Positions 2,599 through 14,580 of a stretch of 64,000 nt of DNA are shown here, piece after piece. How positions within the stretch are numbered: position 1 is the stretch's first letter; each line of letters begins with the position of its first letter. Under the pieces are notes generated by a model that had not been told where the DNA came from, searched no databases, and was given only the letters and a program-made list of their open reading frames with translations. The stretch covers positions 84,798 to 148,797 of the forward strand of contig JACWEB010000001.1 in NCBI GenBank assembly GCA_014653715.1, written 5' to 3'. Source of the DNA: Pelagibacterales bacterium SAG-MED31. Its GTDB lineage: Bacteria; Pseudomonadota; Alphaproteobacteria; HIMB59; GCA-002718135. A program made the position numbers and the translations under genes.

Positions 2599-3523
2599 TT
2601 ATTATTTTTCTAACAACTGTATGTCTTACAACATCACTTTGATCTAATTCAATAAAACCTATATCTTCAATATTTTTAAGTTTTTTTGATGCGTCAATCA
2701 AACCTGAATCAGTTTTAGATATTAAATCAATTTGAGTATTATCACCGACAATCACCATTTTACTATTTTTACCTAATCTTGTTAAAAACATTTTCATTTG
2801 AATTTTTGTAGTATTTTGTGCTTCATCTAAAATTATATAACAGTTTTCAAGAGTTCTTCCTCTCATAAAAGCTATCGGCGCAATTTCAATAATATTGTTA
2901 GTAATTTTTTTCTCTACCTGATCATAAGGCATCATTTCATATAAGGCATCATAAATTGGTCGCAAAAATGGATCAACTTTTTCTTTAAGATCTCCAGGCA
3001 AGAAGCCAAGTTTTTCACCAGCCTCAACAGCTGGTCTTGATAAAATAATTTTACTTACCGTGCCCTGCTGAAGTGAAGCAACAGCTTTGGCAACTGCCAA
3101 AAATGTTTTTCCTGTACCAGCAGGACCATAAGCAAATACAATATCTTTAGAATTAAGTAATTGAAAATAATCTTTTTGATTTTGAGTACGAGGTAATATT
3201 TTTCTTTTTTTTGTTTGAAAAAATAGATCCATTTGATCTTGTGAATTTATTTCTAAAATTTTCATGCTTCTAGTTTCCATAATTTTATCTTCATCTATAT
3301 CAATTCCTTTTTTTGCTTCTTCAAATAATAATAAAATTTCTTCTTTAGTATTTTTAATTGATGATTTGGCTCCAATAATTTTTATTTTATTACCTCTATA
3401 TTTAATTCTTACATTATTTACTTTTTCTATTATGTGAATATTTTTATCATCTATCCCAAAAAGATTAGGGATATAATTATTATCACTTAATTCAAAATCC
3501 AAAGAGTAATTTATATTACTCAA
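2570..3523 (-). CDS. phoH: PhoH-like ATPase (YbeZ)
   Basis: Walker A GPAGTGKTFLAVA and Walker B-like ILDEAQN. Canonical position between miaB and ybeY. Confidence 0.9.
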   Translation of the reverse strand: MSNINYSLDFELSDNNYIPNLFGIDDKNIHIIEKVNNVRIKYRGNKIKIIGAKSSIKNTKEEILLLFEEAKKGIDIDEDKIMETRSMKILEINSQDQMDLFFQTKKRKILPRTQNQKDYFQLLNSKDIVFAYGPAGTGKTFLAVAKAVASLQQGTVSKIILSRPAVEAGEKLGFLPGDLKEKVDPFLRPIYDALYEMMPYDQVEKKITNNIIEIAPIAFMRGRTLENCYIILDEAQNTTKIQMKMFLTRLGKNSKMVIVGDNTQIDLISKTDSGLIDASKKLKNIEDIGFIELDQSDVVRHTVVRKIINAYEEKNRN

Positions 3524-4827
3524 ATTGAGCTCTCCAAAGCAAAATCAGTGGAATTAAGTATCTTCACCTTTTTAATAGTATTAATAAGATTTTTATCATT
3601 TTTAGTAAAAACACTCTGATTATATATTGACCGACCAATATATTGATTTTGGTATCTGCCTTTTTTTTCAAATAATATTTCCATACTTGATCCTACAAAA
3701 GATTTATTAAACTTTTTTTGCTGTTCTTTTAAAAGTGATTGTAATGCACTTAATCTTGCTTTTTTATCTGCGAGTGGAACATTATCTTTTTTTTGTGCAG
3801 GAGTACCAGGCCTTTGGCTATACATGAACGAATAAGCAATGACAAACTCAACATCATCTACAAATTTCATAGTCTCTTCAAAATCTCTATCTGTTTCGCT
3901 TGGATAACCTACAATAAAATCTGATGAAAGGGCAATATCAGGCCTCTCATTTCTAAGTTTATTAACAATTTTTTTATAACTATCTACTGTATGTTTTCTG
4001 TTCATATCTTTCAAAATTTTATCTGACCCAGATTGAATTGGAAGGTGTAAAAAAGGCATTAATTTGTGGTTAGTTTTATGGACCTTTATAAGTGAGTCAT
4101 TCATATCTATTGGGTGTGATGTCATATATCTAATTCTTGAGAGATTTTCTATTTCACTAACTTTATTAACCAAATAGGCTAGATTTTTTGATTTACCATC
4201 TAGACCTATCCCGTGGTATGCATTTACATTTTGACCTAGAAAAATAATTTCTTTAACTCCTTGAGTAACATATTTTTCTACTTCAATTATAATATCACTT
4301 ACAGGACGAGAAAACTCTGGTCCTCTAGTGTAAGGTACAACACAAAAAGAGCAAAACTTATCACAACCTTCTTGAATTGAGACAAATTCTGACACACCAC
4401 CAGCTGAGTTATAAAGTAAATTTTTAAATTTTTCGTTTTGAGTAAACTCATCACTTATTATTTTATCACTTCTATCTAACATGTCTGGTAAATTGTGATA
4501 TGATTGAGGTCCAACAACAAAATCAACAGATGGTGCTCTTTTTTTTATTTCTTTACCTTCTGCTTGAGCTACGCAACCAGCAATAACAAGCTTAAAATCA
4601 TCTTTTGATTTATTTTTTTTAATTTTATTAATTCTCCCAATATCCGAATATACTTTTTCTGCTGCCTTCTCCCTAATGTGACAAGTGTTCAAAACTACAA
4701 GATTAGCATCCTTAGGGTCTTCAACTTTTTCATAATTTTTATTTTTAAATAAATCTAAAATTCTATTTGAATCATAAACGTTCATTTGACAGCCATAAGA
4801 TTTAATATAGATTTTATTTTTTTTCAT
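3520..4827 (-). CDS. miaB: tRNA-2-methylthio-N6-dimethylallyladenosine synthase MiaB
   Basis: N-terminal UPF0004 motif SYGCQMNVYDS, radical-SAM CDKFCSFCVVPYTRG (CxxxCxxC), and a C-terminal TRAM-like region. Confidence 0.9.
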   Translation of the reverse strand: MKKNKIYIKSYGCQMNVYDSNRILDLFKNKNYEKVEDPKDANLVVLNTCHIREKAAEKVYSDIGRINKIKKNKSKDDFKLVIAGCVAQAEGKEIKKRAPSVDFVVGPQSYHNLPDMLDRSDKIISDEFTQNEKFKNLLYNSAGGVSEFVSIQEGCDKFCSFCVVPYTRGPEFSRPVSDIIIEVEKYVTQGVKEIIFLGQNVNAYHGIGLDGKSKNLAYLVNKVSEIENLSRIRYMTSHPIDMNDSLIKVHKTNHKLMPFLHLPIQSGSDKILKDMNRKHTVDSYKKIVNKLRNERPDIALSSDFIVGYPSETDRDFEETMKFVDDVEFVIAYSFMYSQRPGTPAQKKDNVPLADKKARLSALQSLLKEQQKKFNKSFVGSSMEILFEKKGRYQNQYIGRSIYNQSVFTKNDKNLINTIKKVKILNSTDFALESSI

Positions 4828-5905: not shown

Positions 5906-6919
5906 GTGTTTATTTTAAGAATATTATTTATCTTTTTTATATGTTTAAACATATCTAGTTCCTATGCAAGCAACATTAAAAATTCCGCAGTTGTATTTAT
6001 GTACCATAAATTTGGAGTATCTAAATATCCATCAACTAGTGTTACGATAAACCAGTTTGATGCCCATTTAAAAGAATTTTCAAAATCAAAATATTCTGTG
6101 AAGTCAGTTGAATTCATAATGGATACGATAATTAATGATGGTGATCTTCCTAACAATACTATTGGCATAAGCGTCGACGATGCCGATAAATCATTTTATG
6201 AAGTTGGGTGGCCAAAGTTTAAAAAAATGGGATTTCCAGTTACACTTTTTGTTAATACATCAACAATTCATGAAAATAATAAAAACTATTTAAATTGGGA
6301 TCAGGTTAGAGAGTTAGTAAATGAAGGTGTGTCAATAGGTGCACATTCTCATAGTCATTATCATATGGCAGATTTATCAATTGAGAAAGTAAGAAATGAA
6401 ATAGAAATTTCAAATAATATTTTTCTCAAAGAATTAGGAAGTATACCTCCTCTTTTTGCTTTTCCTTATGGTGAAGCAAATGAAGAAATTATAAATTTAC
6501 TTAAAGAGTATAAATTTAAAGTTGCCTTTGGTCAGCACTCTGGGGTTATAAATGAAACTTCAAATCTATATTATTTACCTAGATTTTCTCTAAATGAAAA
6601 ATATGCAGAAATAGACAGAGTAAAATTTGCCGCAAATGCAAAGGGATTGGGTATTTATGATTTTATTCCAACAGACCCTAGTATATCTGAGAATCCTCCT
6701 TACATAGGTTTTTCCTTACTTGATGAAAAATTAGCTCTTTCTATTGATTGTTTTATTTTTGATAGCAAAGGACAAGTGGGAAAAGAATTATTCAAATTTA
6801 ATGAACGCATAGAAATTAGATTAAAAAGAAAACTAACAGAAGGTCGATCAAGAGTAAATTGTACAGCTAAGGGAAGTGATAACCAATGGAGATGGTTTGG
6901 CCACCAGTTATATTTATGA
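5906..6919 (+). CDS. Secreted polysaccharide deacetylase (NodB/CE4) family protein
   Basis: GTG start and a signal-like N-terminus MFILRILFIFFICLNISSSYA. Motifs SVDDADKSF (Asp-Asp), the AHSHSHYH His cluster, and FAFPYGE. Confidence 0.7.
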   Translation: MFILRILFIFFICLNISSSYASNIKNSAVVFMYHKFGVSKYPSTSVTINQFDAHLKEFSKSKYSVKSVEFIMDTIINDGDLPNNTIGISVDDADKSFYEVGWPKFKKMGFPVTLFVNTSTIHENNKNYLNWDQVRELVNEGVSIGAHSHSHYHMADLSIEKVRNEIEISNNIFLKELGSIPPLFAFPYGEANEEIINLLKEYKFKVAFGQHSGVINETSNLYYLPRFSLNEKYAEIDRVKFAANAKGLGIYDFIPTDPSISENPPYIGFSLLDEKLALSIDCFIFDSKGQVGKELFKFNERIEIRLKRKLTEGRSRVNCTAKGSDNQWRWFGHQLYL

Positions 6920-9554: not shown

Positions 9555-11102
9555 TTATTTTTTTAGATAATTTTTAATATCAGTAATTGTTAGTATTTTT
9601 AATAAAAATATTAATATCCCATAAATAACGACCGTAAAAATAATTGTCAGTAATAAATAAAATATATTCGTCATAGTGTTCATCAAGTATACTTCAATAA
9701 AAAAGAAGTTTTTTAAATACCAAGTAAGAACTATTATGCCCAATGAACATATTAATAATTTAAGAACATTGCTTAAAAATTGACGGTCTAAATTTAATGT
9801 CTTTCTAATTATAAGTATTATAAAAAGTAAAATGGCATTAATCCAAGCACTAATGGCAGTTGCTAAAGCAATACCCATCTCTCTCATCGTACTTATCAGT
9901 ATAAGAGATAAAATAATATTCATTACCACACTCACTATGGAGATATACAAAGGTGTTTTGGTATCTTCCCTTGCAAAAAAACAAACAACTAAAACTTTAA
10001 TTAATACATAGGCTGGAAGACCAAGCGCAAAATATGCAAGAACGTTGGAAGTATATAGCGTGTCTTCTTGAGTAAAGGCTCCACGCTCAAATAAGATATG
10101 AACTATGGGTAAAGATAAAATATATAAACCAATTGCTGAGGGGATAGATATTAATAGAGCAAATTCTAAAGATTTATTTTGAAGTTTAGTGGCTATCTCA
10201 TCATCAGTGGACTTAATAGCTTTTGACAAACTTGGAAGTAACACAACGCCAAGCGCAATGCCAAATATAGCCAGGGGTAACTGATTTAATCTATCCGCAT
10301 AATATAAATGACTGATGGCTCCAATAGGAAGAAAGGAAGCTATAATAGTACCTATGATGATATTTAATTGAATTACTCCTGAACCAATTAAACCTGGAAA
10401 AAATAATCGGAAAAATTTTCTTATCTTATCATTAAGTTTAGGAAATATAATTTTAGGTTTATAGAAATTAAGAGTAGATCGGTACAAAAATAAAAACTGA
10501 CCAACCCCTCCTATTAAAACACCGATTGATAAAGCATGGCCAGCAGAACTTACATACGGTGTAATAATATAAAGAGAGAGAATAAAACTAATATTTAAAA
10601 TAGAAGGAGCAAATGCGCCTGCTGCAAATTTTTCATGAACATTTAAAATGGATGTGAAGTGTGCTGCCAAAGAAATAAAAATTAAATACGGAAATATTAT
10701 TTTTCCAAAAAACACTGCTAAATCAAATGCCTCACTGTTTATAGAAAATCCAGGGGCTAATATTTGAATAATATACGGCATTCCAAAAAAGAAAATGATC
10801 GTTAAACTCACCGTAACAAATAGTAAAAATGACATAGTGTTTTCAACAAAGTCAGCTGCTTCATGGTCATCTTTTGTGTCAATAACAATACCTGAGATAA
10901 CAGGGATTAGTGCAGCGCTATAGGCCCCTTCTGCTAAAACACGTCGAAAGAAATTGGGAATACGAAAAGCTACGAAGAACGCATCTGATGTTACGGTCGA
11001 TCCAAGAAAGCGAGCTATTAATATGTCACGAATAAAGCCTAAAATCCTACTTAGGAGGGTATAAAAACTAACAGTAAAAAATGACCTAAAGAGTGACTGC
11101 AT
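9555..11102 (-). CDS. murJ: Lipid II flippase MurJ (MviN)
   Basis: N-terminus [34 protein letters not shown] is typical of MurJ. About 14 hydrophobic helices, 515 aa. Confidence 0.9.
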
Positions 11103-11246
11103 TATCTAATTTTATATTGTGAAGAGTGATTTGTATAAATTTTATTTGTGTCCCAATTTAGTTGAAAAGTAGTAAATCTATTGTTTTTTATAAGGTTGTT
11201 CAAATATATCCTTGAAAATATAGATTTCATTAGTATTGAGAAAGTA

Positions 11247-11330
11247 ATGAAAAATGAAAATCCTAACCCACCTAAGTGTGGCTGTAGCTGTAGCTGTTGT
11301 TGTACTTGTGAAGGTGGAGGGTGTTGTTAG
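11247..11330 (+). CDS. Candidate 27-aa cysteine-rich (metallothionein-like) micro-protein
   Basis: Hand-translated: ATG 11247 to TAG 11328-11330 gives MKNENPNPPKCGCSCSCCCTCEGGGCC (9 Cys). It is too short for the ORF track. It forms a local G+C spike in the spacer, has purine-rich GAGAAAG at 11238-11244, and is followed by a plus-strand terminator. It competes with the overlapping frame at 11254..11343. Confidence 0.3.
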   Translation: MKNENPNPPKCGCSCSCCCTCEGGGCC

Positions 11331-11343
11331 ATTAACACCCTAA
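11254..11343 (+). CDS. Alternative-frame candidate 29-aa hydrophobic micro-protein
   Basis: ATG 11254 to TAA 11341-11343 gives MKILTHLSVAVAVAVVVLVKVEGVVRLTP, a single-helix-like peptide. GAGAAAG lies 9 nt upstream, which is better SD spacing than for 11247. Its codons end mostly in A/T, as elsewhere in the window. It is mutually exclusive with, or dual-coded with, the Cys-rich frame. Confidence 0.3.
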   Translation: MKILTHLSVAVAVAVVVLVKVEGVVRLTP

Positions 11344-11357
11344 AGTTCCACCTTTTT
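11313..11357 (+). terminator. Intrinsic terminator for a plus-strand transcript in the murJ/znuA spacer
   Basis: The stem is GGTGGAGGGTGTT (11313-11325), an 8-nt loop, AACACCC (11334-11340), a 6-nt bulge, then TCCACC (11347-11352). TTTTT follows at 11353-11357. On the minus strand no T-tract follows the stem. Confidence 0.55.
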
Positions 11358-11370
11358 ATATTATTTAATA

Positions 11371-12510
11371 TTAACAACTCTTAAGTTCATTACCTAAATT
11401 ACTTATCAATTTAAAGTAAAGATCTTTATCAGAATTAATATTTGCTCCTAGAGGATCAAAGACACCCGTTTTGATATTAGTGTCCTCTGCAATTGTTGAA
11501 ATTATCTTTGGATTAAATTGAGGTTCAGAGAAAATACAATTAATTCCTCTATCTTTAATTACATCCTGAATTTCATCAATTTGTTTAGCTCCAGGTAAAA
11601 CATCAGTATTTAATGTTAATGCTCCTGCTGCTCTGACACCAAAACGCTCTTCAAAATATTGATAAGCATCATGGAATACGACAAATTTTGCGTCCTTATT
11701 AATATCTTTACTGACATCTTTAATCAGTTGATCAAGTGCAATAATAGTTGCCTCAGCATTAGCTTCATATTTATCCTTATTCGCAGGATCTAAATCACCT
11801 AATTCGTGAGCAATTTCGTGAACCATTTCTTTGGCATTGCTTGGATCTAACCATATGTGAGCATCAAACTCTCCATGGTTGTGACCTTCATGTCCAGCAT
11901 GATCATCATGATCGTCGTGATCGTCGTGGTCATCATGGTCTTCATGGTCTTCATCATGATCGTCATGATCATCATGGTCTTCATCATGATCGTCATGATC
12001 ATCATGGTCTTCATCGTGGTCATCATGATCTTCATCATGATCGTCGTGATCATCGTGGTCATCATGATCATCATGGTCTTCGTCATGGTCTTCGTCGTGA
12101 TCATCATGATCATCATGGTCGTCATGATCACCATAGATACTTTCTTCTCTAAATTTTAACTTTTCAATGCTATCAACTTCCATAAACTCAACAACTTCAG
12201 CATTTTTAACAATTGACTCAAGAGGTCTTTCCATAAAAGTTTCAATGCCTTCACCAACCCAAAATATAATATCAGCTTCTTCTAGAAGTTTTGCATGAGA
12301 AGGTTTTAACGTAAAGCTATGTGGAGATGTGCTGCCTTCAATTATTAATGACGGCTCACCAACACCATCCATAACATTCGCAATTAATGAATGTAGAGGT
12401 TTTATAGTGGTAACAACTTTTATTTCTGCTCGTACAGGCGCTGTAGCAATAAGCAAAAAAGAGAAAATTGTTACTTTTAATAAGTTTAGTAGATAATTAT
12501 TCTGTTTCAT
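11371..12510 (-). CDS. znuA: Zinc ABC transporter substrate-binding protein ZnuA with hyper-extended His/Asp loop
   Basis: The ORF track gives 11371..12570. I prefer ATG 12510 (MKQNNYLLNLLKVTIFSFLLIATAPVRAE, signal-like) because the upstream 60 nt contain the Zur-box palindrome. The protein has the cluster A-I binding-protein layout. A loop of about 88 residues consists almost only of D/E/H. It is divergent from znuCB-zur. Confidence 0.9.
   Translation of the reverse strand: MKQNNYLLNLLKVTIFSFLLIATAPVRAEIKVVTTIKPLHSLIANVMDGVGEPSLIIEGSTSPHSFTLKPSHAKLLEEADIIFWVGEGIETFMERPLESIVKNAEVVEFMEVDSIEKLKFREESIYGDHDDHDDHDDHDEDHDEDHDDHDDHDDHDDHDEDHDDHDEDHDDHDDHDEDHDDHDDHDEDHEDHDDHDDHDDHDDHAGHEGHNHGEFDAHIWLDPSNAKEMVHEIAHELGDLDPANKDKYEANAEATIIALDQLIKDVSKDINKDAKFVVFHDAYQYFEERFGVRAAGALTLNTDVLPGAKQIDEIQDVIKDRGINCIFSEPQFNPKIISTIAEDTNIKTGVFDPLGANINSDKDLYFKLISNLGNELKSC
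11946..12005. repeat. Perfect 30-bp x2 tandem repeat inside the ZnuA His/Asp-loop coding region
   Basis: GGTCTTCATCATGATCGTCATGATCATCAT occurs at 11946-11975 and again at 11976-12005. A third copy diverges after 9 nt. Both sit in a longer imperfect GAT/CAT/GTC array at about 11880-12135. Confidence 0.9.
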
Positions 12511-12548: not shown

Positions 12549-12565
12549 ATGTTATAATATAACAT
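12549..12565. promoter_or_regulatory. Zur box in the divergent znuA / znuCB-zur promoter region
   Basis: ATGTTATA-A-TATAACAT is a perfect 8-1-8 palindrome. It matches the core of the enterobacterial and alphaproteobacterial Zur operator (..ATGTTATAxTATAACAT..). It lies 20 nt upstream of the znuC ATG and 39 nt upstream of the preferred znuA ATG. Confidence 0.8.
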
Positions 12566-12584: not shown

Positions 12585-13325
12585 ATGGATCAAAATAAAT
12601 TACTTGTTAAATTAGAAAAAGCAGGTGTCTATAGGTCATCTAAATGGCTTGTGAGAGGTATTTCTCTTGAAATAAATCAAGGTCAAATTGTAACACTTAT
12701 TGGCCCCAATGGTTCTGGAAAAACAACAACAGCCAAAATGATATTAAATATTTTGAATACAGACGAAGGTTTTGTGACAGGAAATGCTAATAAGATGGCA
12801 TACGTTCCTCAGAAAATTAATATTGATTGGACAATGCCTCTGCGTGTCATTGATTTTATGAAAATCACAAGCAGCCTTAATAATACTGAGATCACTGAGT
12901 CCTTAGTTATGACAGGTGTTGATAAATTACTCTATAATCAGATCCATAGTTTGTCAGGTGGTGAATTTCAACGTGTTTTAATTGCAAGAGCGATAGCAAA
13001 AAAACCAGATCTATTAGTATTAGATGAACCTGTACAGGGAGTTGATTTTAATGGGGAGATAGCCCTCTATAATCTTATCAAAGATATTTCTGTTAACTTA
13101 AATTGTGGTATCTTATTAATTTCGCATGATATGCATTTTGTCATGTCTACTACCGATCATGTTATCTGTTTAAATGGACATATATGTTGTTCTGGATCAC
13201 CAAGCAATGTTGTAAAAAATCCAGAATATATAAAATTATTTGGTGAACATAACTCAGAGACCTTATCTTATTATCAACATCAACACGATCATTCACACGA
13301 TCATGATGGAAGTATATCTAAATAA
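12585..13325 (+). CDS. znuC: Zinc ABC transporter ATP-binding protein ZnuC
   Basis: Walker A GPNGSGKTT, signature LSGGEFQR, Walker B LLVLDEP. His-rich C-terminal tail HQHDHSHDHD. Confidence 0.9.
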   Translation: MDQNKLLVKLEKAGVYRSSKWLVRGISLEINQGQIVTLIGPNGSGKTTTAKMILNILNTDEGFVTGNANKMAYVPQKINIDWTMPLRVIDFMKITSSLNNTEITESLVMTGVDKLLYNQIHSLSGGEFQRVLIARAIAKKPDLLVLDEPVQGVDFNGEIALYNLIKDISVNLNCGILLISHDMHFVMSTTDHVICLNGHICCSGSPSNVVKNPEYIKLFGEHNSETLSYYQHQHDHSHDHDGSISK

Positions 13326-14128
13326 TGTTTGATGATTTTTTTATTCGCGCATTAATTGCAGGTATCGGCATTGCTATTGTAACTGGCCCGCTTGGTTGTC
13401 TAGTTATATGGCGAAGGCTTTCTTATTTCGGCGATACGTTATCACACTCAGCCTTACTCGGTGTGACACTAGCTTATGCTTTTAGTATTAATATATCTCT
13501 ATCCGTATTTATCATATCTGGAACAGTAGCATTACTTCTACTCAGTTTACAAAAAAGAACAAAGTTAGCGGGAGACTCTTTACTTGGACTGTTAGCGCAT
13601 TCAACTCTAGCAATTGGCCTGGTATTAATTGGTTTTCTATCCTCCATTCGTTTTGATTTAATGGGATTATTATTTGGAGATATATTGGCCGTCACTGTTG
13701 AAGATATTTTTATTATCTGGTTTGGTGGATTAATTATTTTAGGAATATTATTTTACATTTGGAAATCAATATTTGCCGCGACTGTTAATTATGATTTAGC
13801 AGCTGCTGAGGGAATGAAGCCAGATTTATCTAATTTTATTTTTACTCTACTCCTAGCTGGTGTAATTGCTATTTCGATAAAAATGATTGGGGCCTTACTT
13901 ATAACAGGCTTACTTTTAATACCTGCTGCTACGGCAAGAAGCTTAAGCAGCAATCCACGTCAAATGGTTATACTATCAATTTTAGTAGGAATTATCTCAG
14001 TAATATTGGGTTTATTTAGTTCGTTAGAGCTTAATACAGCCTCAGGTCCATCAATCATTGTTGCCGCATTAGTGTTATTTATTCTTTCATTAATATCATT
14101 TAAAAGAAGCGGCGCATTGCAAAAATGA
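13325..14128 (+). CDS. znuB: Zinc ABC transporter permease ZnuB
   Basis: 267-aa polytopic membrane protein of the ABC-3 type, start overlapping the znuC stop. Context: znuC upstream, zur downstream. Confidence 0.9.
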   Translation: MFDDFFIRALIAGIGIAIVTGPLGCLVIWRRLSYFGDTLSHSALLGVTLAYAFSINISLSVFIISGTVALLLLSLQKRTKLAGDSLLGLLAHSTLAIGLVLIGFLSSIRFDLMGLLFGDILAVTVEDIFIIWFGGLIILGILFYIWKSIFAATVNYDLAAAEGMKPDLSNFIFTLLLAGVIAISIKMIGALLITGLLLIPAATARSLSSNPRQMVILSILVGIISVILGLFSSLELNTASGPSIIVAALVLFILSLISFKRSGALQK

Positions 14129-14151
14129 AAACAATTTGATATCTAAATAGT

Positions 14152-14580
14152 ATGGCTCTTTCAGCAGAAAAATTAACAAATAACCAACAAACAGTTCTCG
14201 ATTTATTAGAAAAATCAAAAGAACCATTAAAAGCATATGCCATTCTTTATGATACGCAAAAAAAAGGAATTAAAGCGCCACTTCAAGTCTACCGTGCTTT
14301 AGATAAGCTCATTGAAATTGGTAAGGTTCATAAAATAGAGAGTCGAAATTCCTATATTGCATGCGAGCATAAAAACTGTAACTCATCGACATCTACTTCT
14401 TTTTTAATTTGTGAAACATGTGATCAGGTGAGTGAATTAACACAAAAGAACTTACCTTCCTATTTTGCAAAACAAAGTGAGCAGGCTGATTTTAAATACG
14501 CAAAACATAATTTAGAAATTTATGGTGTGTGTAAAGACTGCAGTAAATCCCTCGTGGTTGGTGGTAAAATAGATCACTAG
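14152..14580 (+). CDS. zur: Fur-family zinc uptake regulator Zur
   Basis: 142 aa with an N-terminal winged-helix region. The Cys pairs CEHKNC, CETC and CKDC are typical of Fur-family structural and sensing Zn sites. It is the last gene of znuCB-zur. Confidence 0.75.
   Translation: MALSAEKLTNNQQTVLDLLEKSKEPLKAYAILYDTQKKGIKAPLQVYRALDKLIEIGKVHKIESRNSYIACEHKNCNSSTSTSFLICETCDQVSELTQKNLPSYFAKQSEQADFKYAKHNLEIYGVCKDCSKSLVVGGKIDH

What the first reader, a model, noticed from the sequence alone, without database searches (positions are those of the whole stretch)
11247..11357. Unannotated micro-ORF: Cys-rich metallothionein-like peptide or hydrophobic mini-protein, with its own terminator, beside the Zur-regulated zinc locus
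murJ and znuA are both on the minus strand, yet their 268-bp spacer holds a plus-strand unit. From ATG 11247 it reads MKNENPNPPKCGCSCSCCCTCEGGGCC. That is 9 Cys in the last 17 residues (CxCxCxCCCxC...CC) with no hydrophobic core. The pattern recalls very small metallothioneins. The segment is a sharp local G+C spike in an AT-rich spacer. It runs straight into a plus-strand intrinsic terminator (11313-11357), which argues for a discrete short transcript. Its position next to znuA / Zur box / znuCB-zur suggests a metal-buffering or metallochaperone peptide. I know of no metallothionein described for SAR11-type genomes. A caveat is that the +1 frame from ATG 11254 encodes MKILTHLSVAVAVAVVVLVKVEGVVRLTP, a single-helix peptide. 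That frame has somewhat better SD spacing and more typical third-position usage. Small membrane modulators of transporters exist elsewhere (MntS or AcrZ style). One sequence cannot decide between the two frames or a non-coding sRNA.
Basis: partly seen in the sequence, partly recalled or inferred. Interest (0 to 1): 0.7.

Follow-up and report, generated by a model that had tools for sequence, protein, structure and literature searches.

The report
Unannotated cysteine-rich mini-gene beside zinc uptake genes
A 27-codon gene that no annotation lists encodes a peptide that is one-third cysteine; evolution has kept the peptide sequence intact in ocean SAR11-type bacteria, where it sits next to the zinc-uptake genes, so it is probably a tiny metal-binding (metallothionein-like) peptide, though metal binding is untested.

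Summary
Window 11247-11330 (+) reads MKNENPNPPKCGCSCSCCCTCEGGGCC and runs into a -22.9 kcal/mol hairpin plus U5 at 11310-11357.

Comparative data settle the reading frame.
- In 14 distinct copies, 24 of 28 variable sites fall on codon position 3 (P=1.6e-8).
- A second variant, MDNNKPKPDCGCSCSCCCTCGDGCCQ, differs at 11 of 33 core bases but at no core residue. Both Ser codons switch from AGC to TCT/TCA.
- The start codon varies only among ATG, GTG and TTG.
- The hydrophobic frame loses its ATG in 5 of 9 type-1 copies and in all five type-2 copies. The hairpin is lineage-specific, so a plain sRNA or terminator reading fails.

The gene follows the zinc locus, not murJ. Upstream neighbours differ (murJ, pirin, other), yet it always converges on the 3' end of the znuA arm. 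It was present in 5 of 5 loci sampled through ZnuA at 96% identity, and absent where ZnuA identity is 86.5% or lower.

No Pfam, NCBIfam, PDB, Rfam or literature match exists, and no Zur box lies upstream.

Best reading: a real small protein of a new sequence family that most likely binds metal through thiolates. Coding is shown; metal binding, the metal and the regulation are inferred.

The parts
11247..11330 (+). 27-codon coding sequence (ATG to TAG): MKNENPNPPKCGCSCSCCCTCEGGGCC
   Evidence: Searches give the sequence. Purifying selection acts in this frame: variable sites by codon position are [2,2,15] in type 1 and [0,0,9] in type 2, P=1.6e-8. The start codon varies only among ATG, GTG and TTG.
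11277..11309 (+). Invariant core CGCSCSCCCTC (codons 11-21). The C-terminal CC pair is at 11322-11327.
   Evidence: The core is identical in all 23 copies seen. Between types, 11 of 33 nt differ and 0 of 11 aa differ. Both Ser codons change from AGC/AGT to TCT/TCA.
11310..11357 (+). Intrinsic-terminator-type hairpin with an internal loop, followed by U5. The 5' arm is formed by the last six codons and the stop codon lies in the loop.
   Evidence: Folds at -22.9 kcal/mol. The same stems occur in L002, L183, L243 and L255-L259. It is weaker or lacks the U-run in L156, L209, L003 and L109. It is absent in L045, L246 and type 2. The consensus scan did not call it.
11196..11246 (+). Candidate promoter and leader. 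Contains TATAGAT (11219-11225), which recurs upstream of nearly all type-1 copies. Alternative elements are TTGAAA (11212-11217) and TATTGA (11234-11239). A weak GAGAAAG lies before the ATG.
   Evidence: Read by eye. No plus-strand site here passed the consensus scan. This part is inferred, not shown.
11371..12510 (-). znuA, the periplasmic zinc-binding protein, with a long His/Asp/Glu loop. It converges on the mini-gene, and the two stop codons are 40 nt apart.
   Evidence: Pfam PF01297, E=7.5e-59. Closest named relatives are from Pelagibacteraceae.
12549..12565 (.). Perfect palindrome ATGTTATAATATAACAT in the znuA/znuC divergent promoter region: the presumed Zur operator.
   Evidence: It is the only match in the window with 2 or fewer mismatches. 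None lies near the mini-gene.
12585..14580 (+). znuC (12585-13325), znuB (13325-14128) and a Fur-family regulator, presumed Zur (14152-14580)
   Evidence: ORFs. The regulator hits FUR Pfam at E=3.9e-9. Syntenic loci carry ABC_tran and ABC-3 tags.
9555..11102 (-). murJ, the upstream neighbour in this lineage only. It is not part of the unit.
   Evidence: MurJ Pfam tags appear in the syntenic loci L002 and L256-L257. It is replaced by pirin in L003, L004, L109, L045 and L001.

Best explanation
Window 11247-11330 is a genuine, translated 27-codon gene that annotation misses because of its length. Its product has a polar Pro/Asn/Lys N-terminal tail of 10 residues, followed by 17 residues with 9 cysteines (CGCSCSCCCTC-x4-CC). 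It has no histidine, no aromatic residue and no hydrophobic core.

Shown: selection acts on the peptide sequence.

Inferred, step 1: such a peptide cannot fold without ligands. It most likely wraps metal ions in a thiolate cluster as a metallothionein does. Nine thiolates would suit about 3 Zn(II)/Cd(II) or about 6 Cu(I).

Inferred, step 2: it belongs functionally to the accessory pep-znuA / znuCB-zur module of surface-ocean SAR11. There it would buffer or bank zinc brought in by ZnuABC, or sequester Cu/Cd that competes for the same sites.

Inferred, step 3 (weakest): it has no Zur box of its own, and znuA has no terminator of its own. The conserved tail-to-tail arrangement may therefore let Zur-controlled znuA transcription run antisense into the mini-gene. 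Peptide expression would then fall when zinc uptake is derepressed and rise when zinc is replete.

In this lineage the transcript ends at its own hairpin and U-run.
For: Coding in this frame:
- 24 of 28 variable sites are at codon position 3.
- The 33-nt core differs at 11 bases between the two types with no amino-acid change, including two AGC to TCT/TCA serine switches.
- Only ATG, GTG or TTG occur at the start. The sequence upstream of the Met is unalignable between contexts, while the CDS is 85-99% identical.
- Both other plus-strand frames are broken or lack a start. The minus strand has no ORF of at least 20 aa across the gene.

Composition criteria of metallothioneins are met: 27 aa, 33% Cys, CxC and CC motifs, and no aromatic residue or His. 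The one exception is L246/P0002, which ends in Tyr (GGDCY).

Linkage to the zinc locus:
- In the 17 type-1 loci with a readable downstream flank (window included), the gene converges on the 3' end of znuA or of the znuA-cobW-WD40-84aa operon. This holds with three different upstream neighbours.
- It was present in 5 of 5 informative loci sampled through ZnuA rather than through the peptide.

Termination: znuA has no terminator-like site of its own on the minus strand. Peptide-less znuA loci do have strong hairpin plus U-run terminators.

Precedent: a marine cyanobacterium couples a metallothionein to Zur and znuABC (PMC9337993). A 26-residue, 7-Cys metallothionein exists in fungi (PMC4755600).
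Against: - There is no expression, proteomic or metal-binding data.
- No Zur box or other metal-sensor site lies upstream, and no plus-strand promoter passes the consensus scan.
- The type-2 variant lies between a SAM-methyltransferase and an Anbu/ATP-grasp cluster, with no zinc gene within 8 kb. Zinc linkage is therefore not universal for the family.
- znu loci with ZnuA identity of 86.5% or lower lack the gene. It is dispensable for ZnuABC function.
- The very dense CxC/CCC spacing is more typical of Cu(I)-thioneins than of Zn-thioneins (own knowledge).
- No homology to any metallothionein family was found.
Confidence: 0.5

Rival explanations
1. A real, translated Cys-rich peptide whose role is not metal buffering. 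Options include a thiol/redox peptide, a precursor of a modified peptide, or a small binding partner or regulator of another protein.
For: All the coding evidence applies equally here. Type-2 copies sit divergently next to a SAM-dependent methyltransferase and near an ATP-grasp/Anbu cluster, not near zinc genes. No metal-sensor operator lies upstream.
Against: Type-1 loci have no maturase, transporter or radical-SAM gene beside the gene, and their neighbours vary except for the znu arm. The peptide has no signal peptide or leader/core architecture. SAR11 genomes are streamlined. The composition fits metal-thiolate peptides best.
Confidence: 0.3
2. A cysteine-codon leader ORF, that is, a ribosome-mediated attenuator. 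It would sense Cys-tRNA (reduced-sulfur) supply and decide whether transcription stops at the hairpin or reads antisense into znuA.
For: There are nine Cys codons just upstream of a terminator whose 5' arm lies inside the ORF. The GGUGG segment can pair either with upstream CCACC (11266-11270) or with downstream CCACC. Polycysteine leader ORFs act this way in mycobacteria (bioRxiv 10.1101/834739). SAR11 depends on exogenous reduced sulfur (own knowledge).
Against: There is no co-directional downstream gene. The hairpin, U-run and alternative pairing are absent in L045, L246 and all type-2 copies, and are weakened by a synonymous TGT to TGC change in L003/L109. Non-Cys residues (Gly, Ser, Thr, the Pro-rich tail) are conserved at the protein level, even through serine codon-family switches. 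A codon-counting leader does not need that.
Confidence: 0.08
3. Non-coding: a small RNA, or merely a terminator/structural element at the end of the znuA region, with the ORF incidental.
For: The region folds better than shuffles (z=-2.3). A strong hairpin and U-run are present in this lineage.
Against: No Rfam family matches (best E=1.8, far below gathering scores). The substitution pattern has three-base periodicity with amino-acid conservation. The structure is not conserved where the ORF is. No compensatory changes were seen, and one synonymous change breaks a pair.
Confidence: 0.02
4. The overlapping +1 frame (11254-11343, MKILTHLSVAVAVAVVVLVKVEGVVRLTP) is the real product: a single-helix membrane mini-protein of the MntS or AcrZ style.
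For: The frame is open in the window and its product is hydrophobic. T/C changes at Cys third positions give conservative Ala/Val swaps in this frame.
Against: Its ATG is ATC or ATA in 5 of 9 type-1 copies. Leu to Gln or Arg changes occur in the N-terminus. In type 2 the frame has no start and contains His or Asp within the 'helix'. Variable sites fall on its second codon position.
Confidence: 0.01

Closest known systems
Fungal family-8 Cu-metallothioneins (Neurospora crassa, Agaricus bisporus; 26 aa, 7 Cys; PMC4755600)
   Same: Nearly the same length. Both begin the Cys region with CGCS and are rich in CxC, Gly and Ser. Neither has aromatic residues, His or a hydrophobic core.
   Different: No detectable homology. 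This peptide has 9 Cys packed into 17 residues, with a CCC triplet and a terminal CC. It also has a Pro/Asn/Lys N-terminal tail and is bacterial. Metal binding is shown for the fungal proteins but not for this one.
Cyanobacterial BmtA/SmtA metallothionein under Zur control in marine Synechococcus WH8102 (PMC9337993)
   Same: Both occur in oligotrophic-ocean bacteria. Both are Cys-rich small proteins functionally tied to Zur and znuABC. The idea of 'banking' scarce zinc applies to both.
   Different: BmtA is about 55 aa, uses His as well as Cys, and has a zinc-finger-like fold and a Pfam family (own knowledge). This peptide gives no hit to it and has no His. There Zur binds the bmtA promoter, whereas here no Zur box is found. 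Any coupling would have to be by gene arrangement.
Beta-domain of vertebrate metallothionein (9 Cys, M(II)3S9 or Cu(I)6 cluster; own knowledge)
   Same: The same number of cysteines and CxC-dominated spacing, which gives a plausible stoichiometry.
   Different: It is a domain of about 30 residues within a 61-aa protein. It is unrelated in sequence and its Cys spacing is looser.
Polycysteine leader sORFs of mycobacteria (bioRxiv 10.1101/834739)
   Same: Both are unannotated short ORFs dense in Cys codons. In this lineage the ORF is followed by a terminator that overlaps its end.
   Different: The mycobacterial sORFs precede and control co-directional cysteine-metabolism operons, and their peptide sequence beyond the Cys run is not the selected feature. 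Here there is no downstream co-directional gene, and the whole peptide is under purifying selection.

Membership tests
Metallothioneins (operational class) | Low molecular mass | tested here: met
   27 aa in type 1 and 26 aa in type 2.
Metallothioneins (operational class) | High Cys content (roughly 15-35%) in CxC / CC / CxxC motifs | tested here: met
   9 of 27 residues are Cys (33%), in the pattern CxCxCxCCCxC-x4-CC. All nine Cys are kept in the intact copies, except L246/P0002, which ends CY (8 Cys). L001 is frameshifted after the core.
Metallothioneins (operational class) | Few or no aromatic residues and no hydrophobic core | tested here: met
   No F, W, Y or H occurs in the mature ORF of the window copy or of any other copy except L246/P0002, which has a terminal Y.
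Metallothioneins (operational class) | Binds several metal ions in thiolate clusters | not testable with these tools
   This needs ESI-MS, UV or CD titration of the peptide.
Metallothioneins (operational class) | Metal-responsive expression | tested here: inconclusive
   No Zur box with 3 or fewer mismatches lies near the gene, and no sensor gene is adjacent. Only the positional link to the znu/zur module exists. No expression data are available.
Bacterial BmtA/SmtA family (Pfam Metallothio_Pro) and other Pfam/NCBIfam metallothionein families | Match to the family profile | tested here: not met
   No family matched at E up to 10 in Pfam or NCBIfam, and no PDB sequence matched.
Fungal family-8 metallothionein | Cys pattern C-G-C-S-x4-C-x-C-x3,4-C-x-C-S-x-C (recalled from the Binz-Kagi classification) | tested here: not met
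   Only the initial CGCS matches, and the spacing thereafter differs (sequence). The pattern itself is from memory.
Leader-peptide transcription attenuators | sORF lies upstream of, and co-directional with, the operon it controls | tested here: not met
   The next gene is znuA, or the 84-aa gene in some loci, on the opposite strand in every type-1 locus.
Leader-peptide transcription attenuators | Conserved alternative terminator/antiterminator structures overlapping the sORF | tested here: not met
   The terminator is present only in the murJ-type lineage. It is absent in L045, L246 and type 2.
Rho-independent terminator | G+C-rich hairpin followed directly by a U-run | tested here: met
   11310-11355 folds at -22.9 kcal/mol, with U5 at 11353-11357. 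The strict scan missed it because of the internal loop.
Small hydrophobic transporter modulators (MntS/AcrZ style), +1 frame | Conserved start codon and open frame with a conserved helix | tested here: not met
   The ATG is lost in 5 of 9 type-1 copies and in all type-2 copies, and polar or charged substitutions occur.
Known RNA families (Rfam 15) | Covariance-model match | tested here: not met
   The best hits have E of 1.8 or higher and score far below gathering thresholds.

The most novel reading that the evidence does not exclude
This would be the first metallothionein-type peptide of SAR11/Pelagibacterales and the shortest bacterial one. It would represent a sequence family unrelated to BmtA/SmtA. 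It travels as the outermost gene of the accessory znuA/znuCB-zur module. It would be expressed reciprocally to zinc uptake, not through a metal sensor of its own, but because Zur-controlled znuA transcription runs antisense into it. If so, the most abundant heterotroph of the surface ocean would have a zinc (or Cu/Cd) 'bank' that no annotation, proteome search database or trace-metal model includes.
Probability: 0.3. Interest if true: 0.8.

Novelty: new variant of a known kind. Interest (0 to 1): 0.62.

Why it matters
SAR11 dominates surface-ocean bacterioplankton, where free zinc is extremely scarce. Only about half of SAR11 genomes carry znuABC, and why is not known (PMC4771312).

A conserved, unannotated Cys-rich peptide that travels with that module would add a storage or buffering component to SAR11 trace-metal physiology. 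It would affect estimates of cellular Zn/Cd/Cu quotas. It would also give a synthesizable 27-residue peptide for direct testing.

The gene is costly for an organism that needs exogenous reduced sulfur, since its product is one-third cysteine. That argues for a real benefit.

There is a methodological point too. The family is invisible to gene callers. It appears in a 5.8-billion-protein database only where a spurious upstream extension makes the ORF long enough. Similar mini-genes may therefore be missed systematically.

Tried and rejected
I used the 49-aa upstream-extended ORF instead.
- Genome-collection scan with the CGCxCxCCCxC pattern: too loose. It still yielded L045, L109 and the five type-2 loci.
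- Metagenome scan with CSCSCCCTC written with WSN for Ser: WSN also matches TGY, so it returned mostly (TGY)n microsatellites. Only L156, L183, L209 and L243 were real. Prevalence therefore could not be measured.
- Viral contig scan: no hit, so there is no sign that the gene is phage-borne.
- Profile search of 1.84 billion representative proteins: nothing beyond the nine proteins already known. P0010 and P0011 are unrelated repeat proteins.
- Pfam, NCBIfam, PDB and Rfam: no hits.
- Zur-box search near the gene: none.
- Exact look-up of the window's ZnuC to name the genome: not on record.
- Literature searches for the motif, and for Pelagibacter with metallothionein or 'cysteine-rich': nothing relevant.
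- Rejected readings: the hydrophobic frame, the plain sRNA/terminator and a chance ORF or microsatellite. The TGTAGC repeat of type 1 is gone in type 2, yet the peptide is unchanged.
- L245 was set aside as a probable inverted-join assembly chimera.
- Structure prediction was not run, because a ligand-dependent 27-mer would give no usable model.

Full report
**1.

Window 11247-11330 (+) reads ATG...TAG and encodes MKNENPNPPKCGCSCSCCCTCEGGGCC. The overlapping frame, 11254-11343, encodes MKILTHLSVAVAVAVVVLVKVEGVVRLTP. On the minus strand, murJ (9555-11102) lies to the left. To the right lies znuA (11371-12510; Pfam ZnuA E=7.5e-59).

G+C reaches 0.40-0.47 across the ORF, against 0.20-0.23 on either side.

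The last six codons form the 5' arm of a hairpin at 11310-11355. It folds at -22.9 kcal/mol, has the stop codon in its loop, and ends in U5 at 11353-11357. The strict consensus scan missed it because of an internal loop, and it reported no terminator on either strand in 10900-11600.

The Cys density is an outlier. It is the highest of 1591 six-frame segments in the window. Markov simulations reached at most 7 Cys per 17 residues, usually 5. Long ORFs of the window are 1.0% Cys.

**2. Related copies**

The protein database accepts only queries of at least 40 aa. I therefore queried the 49-aa ORF that starts at an upstream TTG. Nine proteins came back. All share M(K/R)N(E/Q)NP(N/E)PPKCGCSCSCCCTCEGG(G/D)C(C/Y). 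All diverge completely upstream of that Met. They are in the database only because spurious upstream extensions made them long enough to be called.

A profile search of 1.84 billion representative proteins found nothing further.

Two DNA pattern scans were poorly designed on my part. They still yielded six more type-1 copies: L045, L109, L156, L183, L209 and L243. They also yielded a second variant in five single-cell genomes (L008, L040, L072, L108, L114): M(D/E)NNKPKPDCGCSCSCCCTCGDGCCQ.

Sampling through ZnuA added L255-L259.

**3. Which reading frame**

Nine distinct type-1 coding sequences vary at 2, 2 and 15 sites at codon positions 1, 2 and 3. Five type-2 sequences vary at 0, 0 and 9 sites. 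Getting 24 of 28 at position 3 has P=1.6e-8 under no periodicity.

The four codons with amino-acid changes in type 1 (positions 2, 4, 8 and 25) all lie outside the Cys core.

Between the two types, the 33-nt core differs at 11 bases and at no residue. Both serines switch codon family, from AGC/AGT to TCT/TCA. That switch cannot be explained by DNA- or RNA-level conservation. It also removes the TGTAGC mini-repeat of type 1.

The start codon is ATG, GTG (L183, L045) or TTG (L156), and never a non-start codon.

The hydrophobic +1 frame fails. Its ATG is ATC or ATA in 5 of 9 type-1 copies. Leu becomes Gln or Arg in its N-terminus. In type 2 it has no start and carries His or Asp in the supposed helix. 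The +2 frame is full of stops. The minus strand has no ORF of at least 20 aa across the gene.

Coding in the Cys frame is therefore shown as firmly as comparative sequence data allow.

**4. RNA-only readings**

No Rfam family matches.

The hairpin and U-run are identical in the murJ-type lineage (window, L002, L183, L243, L255-L259). They are weaker or lack the U-run in L156 and L209. They are shortened in L003 and L109, where a synonymous TGT to TGC change breaks a pair. They are absent in L045, L245, L246 and all type-2 copies.

The terminator is thus a lineage-specific accessory of a conserved coding sequence, not the conserved element.

**5. Genomic context**

That is not the conserved relationship. 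Upstream neighbours are:
- murJ in the window, L002, L183, L246 and L255-L259;
- pirin in L003, L004, L109, L045 and L001;
- something else in L156.

In every type-1 locus with a readable downstream flank, the gene converges tail-to-tail on one of two things. One is znuA itself. The other, in L001 and L045, is the last gene of a znuA-cobW(COG0523)-WD40-84aa operon. L246 is the one uninformative case, because its contig ends.

CDS identity to the window is 85-99%. The upstream 84 nt fall to the roughly 65% baseline of unrelated AT-rich DNA in pirin-type loci.

As a less biased test, I sampled loci through ZnuA homologues. At 96% ZnuA identity, 5 of 5 informative contigs carry the gene, and a sixth contig ends inside the hairpin. 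The gene is absent next to the znuA arm at:
- 86.5% identity (L264);
- 72% (L262);
- 69% (L263);
- 67% (L247-L254, one lineage);
- 60% (L261).

Those loci instead have ordinary strong terminators after znuA or after its operon.

Hogle et al. report znuA in about half of SAR11 genomes, with conserved synteny to a Fur-family gene (PMC4771312). The mini-gene is thus the outermost member of this accessory module in one sublineage.

The type-2 variant has a different context. It lies divergent from a 203-aa SAM-dependent methyltransferase and next to an Anbu-type proteasome homologue and an ATP-grasp gene. No zinc gene lies within 8 kb.

No copy was found in viral contigs.

**6. Regulation**

The znuA/znuC divergent region holds a perfect palindrome, ATGTTATAATATAACAT (12549-12565). 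This is the presumed Zur operator. Nothing within three mismatches lies near the mini-gene.

No plus-strand promoter passes the consensus scan. A TATAGAT motif recurs upstream of nearly all type-1 copies in both upstream contexts, which I read by eye. I list it only as a candidate -10 element.

znuA in peptide-bearing loci has no terminator of its own, and the shared hairpin has its U-run on the peptide's strand. Derepressed znuA transcription may therefore read antisense through the mini-gene. That would give reciprocal expression without a dedicated sensor. This is an inference that would explain the strictly conserved convergent arrangement. It is untested.

**7. Likely function**

A 17-residue stretch with nine thiols, glycine, serine and threonine between them, and no hydrophobic core cannot fold on its own. 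The known class with these properties is the metallothioneins. All sequence-level criteria of that class are met. Metal binding could not be tested.

The closest analogues are:
- the 26-residue, 7-Cys Cu-thioneins of Neurospora and Agaricus (PMC4755600), which also start their Cys region with CGCS;
- the 9-Cys beta-domain of vertebrate metallothionein (own knowledge);
- functionally, BmtA of marine Synechococcus, which Zur activates to bank zinc (PMC9337993).

There is no homology to any of them. I therefore do not file it as a member of any existing family.

The zinc assignment rests on type-1 synteny alone. The dense CxC/CCC spacing and the zinc-free context of type 2 leave Cu(I) or Cd(II) sequestration, or a non-metal thiol role, open.

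**8. Rival explanations**

The cysteine-sensing leader-peptide model has some appeal. It would resemble mycobacterial polycysteine sORFs (bioRxiv 10.1101/834739). SAR11 needs reduced sulfur, and the GGUGG segment can pair with CCACC on either side. However, there is no co-directional gene to control. The structures are not conserved. Selection acts on non-Cys residues too.

A modified-peptide precursor is unsupported in type-1 loci, because no maturase is conserved beside it. The type-2 neighbourhood keeps a non-metal function possible.

**9. Verdict**

This is a real, previously undescribed small-protein gene. I found no literature or database record of it. It belongs to a new sequence family with at least two types in marine AT-rich alphaproteobacteria. 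The nearest ZnuA relatives are named Pelagibacteraceae.

It is best read as a metallothionein-like thiolate peptide attached to the zinc-uptake module. My confidence that it is a coding gene is about 0.95. My confidence that it binds metal as its function is about 0.5-0.6. My confidence that the metal is zinc specifically is about 0.35.

Noticed in passing
window 11849-12145 (within znuA, minus strand): ZnuA carries a His/Asp/Glu loop of about 110 residues (HDDHDDHDE...). It is encoded by 17 overlapping copies of 9/12-nt tandem units. Loop length differs between related loci: ZnuA is 310-325 aa in L156, L209 and L243, against 379-384 aa in the window and L109. Gene callers split ZnuA at this point in many assemblies.
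   Followed up: partly
L072 about 6497-6580 (minus strand); same position in L008, L040, L108, L114: Type-2 loci hold a second conserved unannotated mini-ORF on the opposite strand: MARKKGKYVDVIFGFILGIIVLVKIIY, a 27-aa single helix. In L114 it shows conservative changes. Its stop overlaps the stop of the Cys peptide, and it lies between the peptide and the Anbu-type proteasome homologue (read by eye).
   Followed up: no
L262 3391-3627 (+): At a znu locus without the mini-gene (ZnuA 72% identical), a 78-aa Lys/Glu-rich ORF lies directly downstream of znuA and co-directional with it. It ends in ...KKEGSCSCC. This may be an unrelated coincidence or a different Cys-tailed partner.
   Followed up: no
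L001 4092-4346, L045 7241-7495, L264 5057-5311: An 84-aa ORF with a CHEP(D/N)CPP motif and no Pfam match closes the znuA-cobW(COG0523)-WD40 operon in some SAR11 znu loci. It is probably an uncharacterized member of the zinc-limitation regulon.
   Followed up: no
L001 4060-4075: The single-cell genome copy has a 1-nt deletion in GGTGGAGGG, which gives a frameshifted 47-aa product (P0009). Restoring the base gives ...GCC and then a stop. This is either a sequencing error in a G-run or a recent pseudogene.
   Followed up: partly
L245 1-1079: This contig joins WD40 (+) and the first 20 codons of the 84-aa gene (+) to the pirin start (-) and the mini-gene (+). It looks like an inverted-join assembly chimera rather than a real fusion (P0008).
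   Followed up: partly
L247-L254 about 3429-3845: A lineage with ZnuA 67% identical carries a second Fur-family gene and a DUF4856 gene downstream of znuA, in addition to the Fur-family gene after znuB.
   Followed up: no
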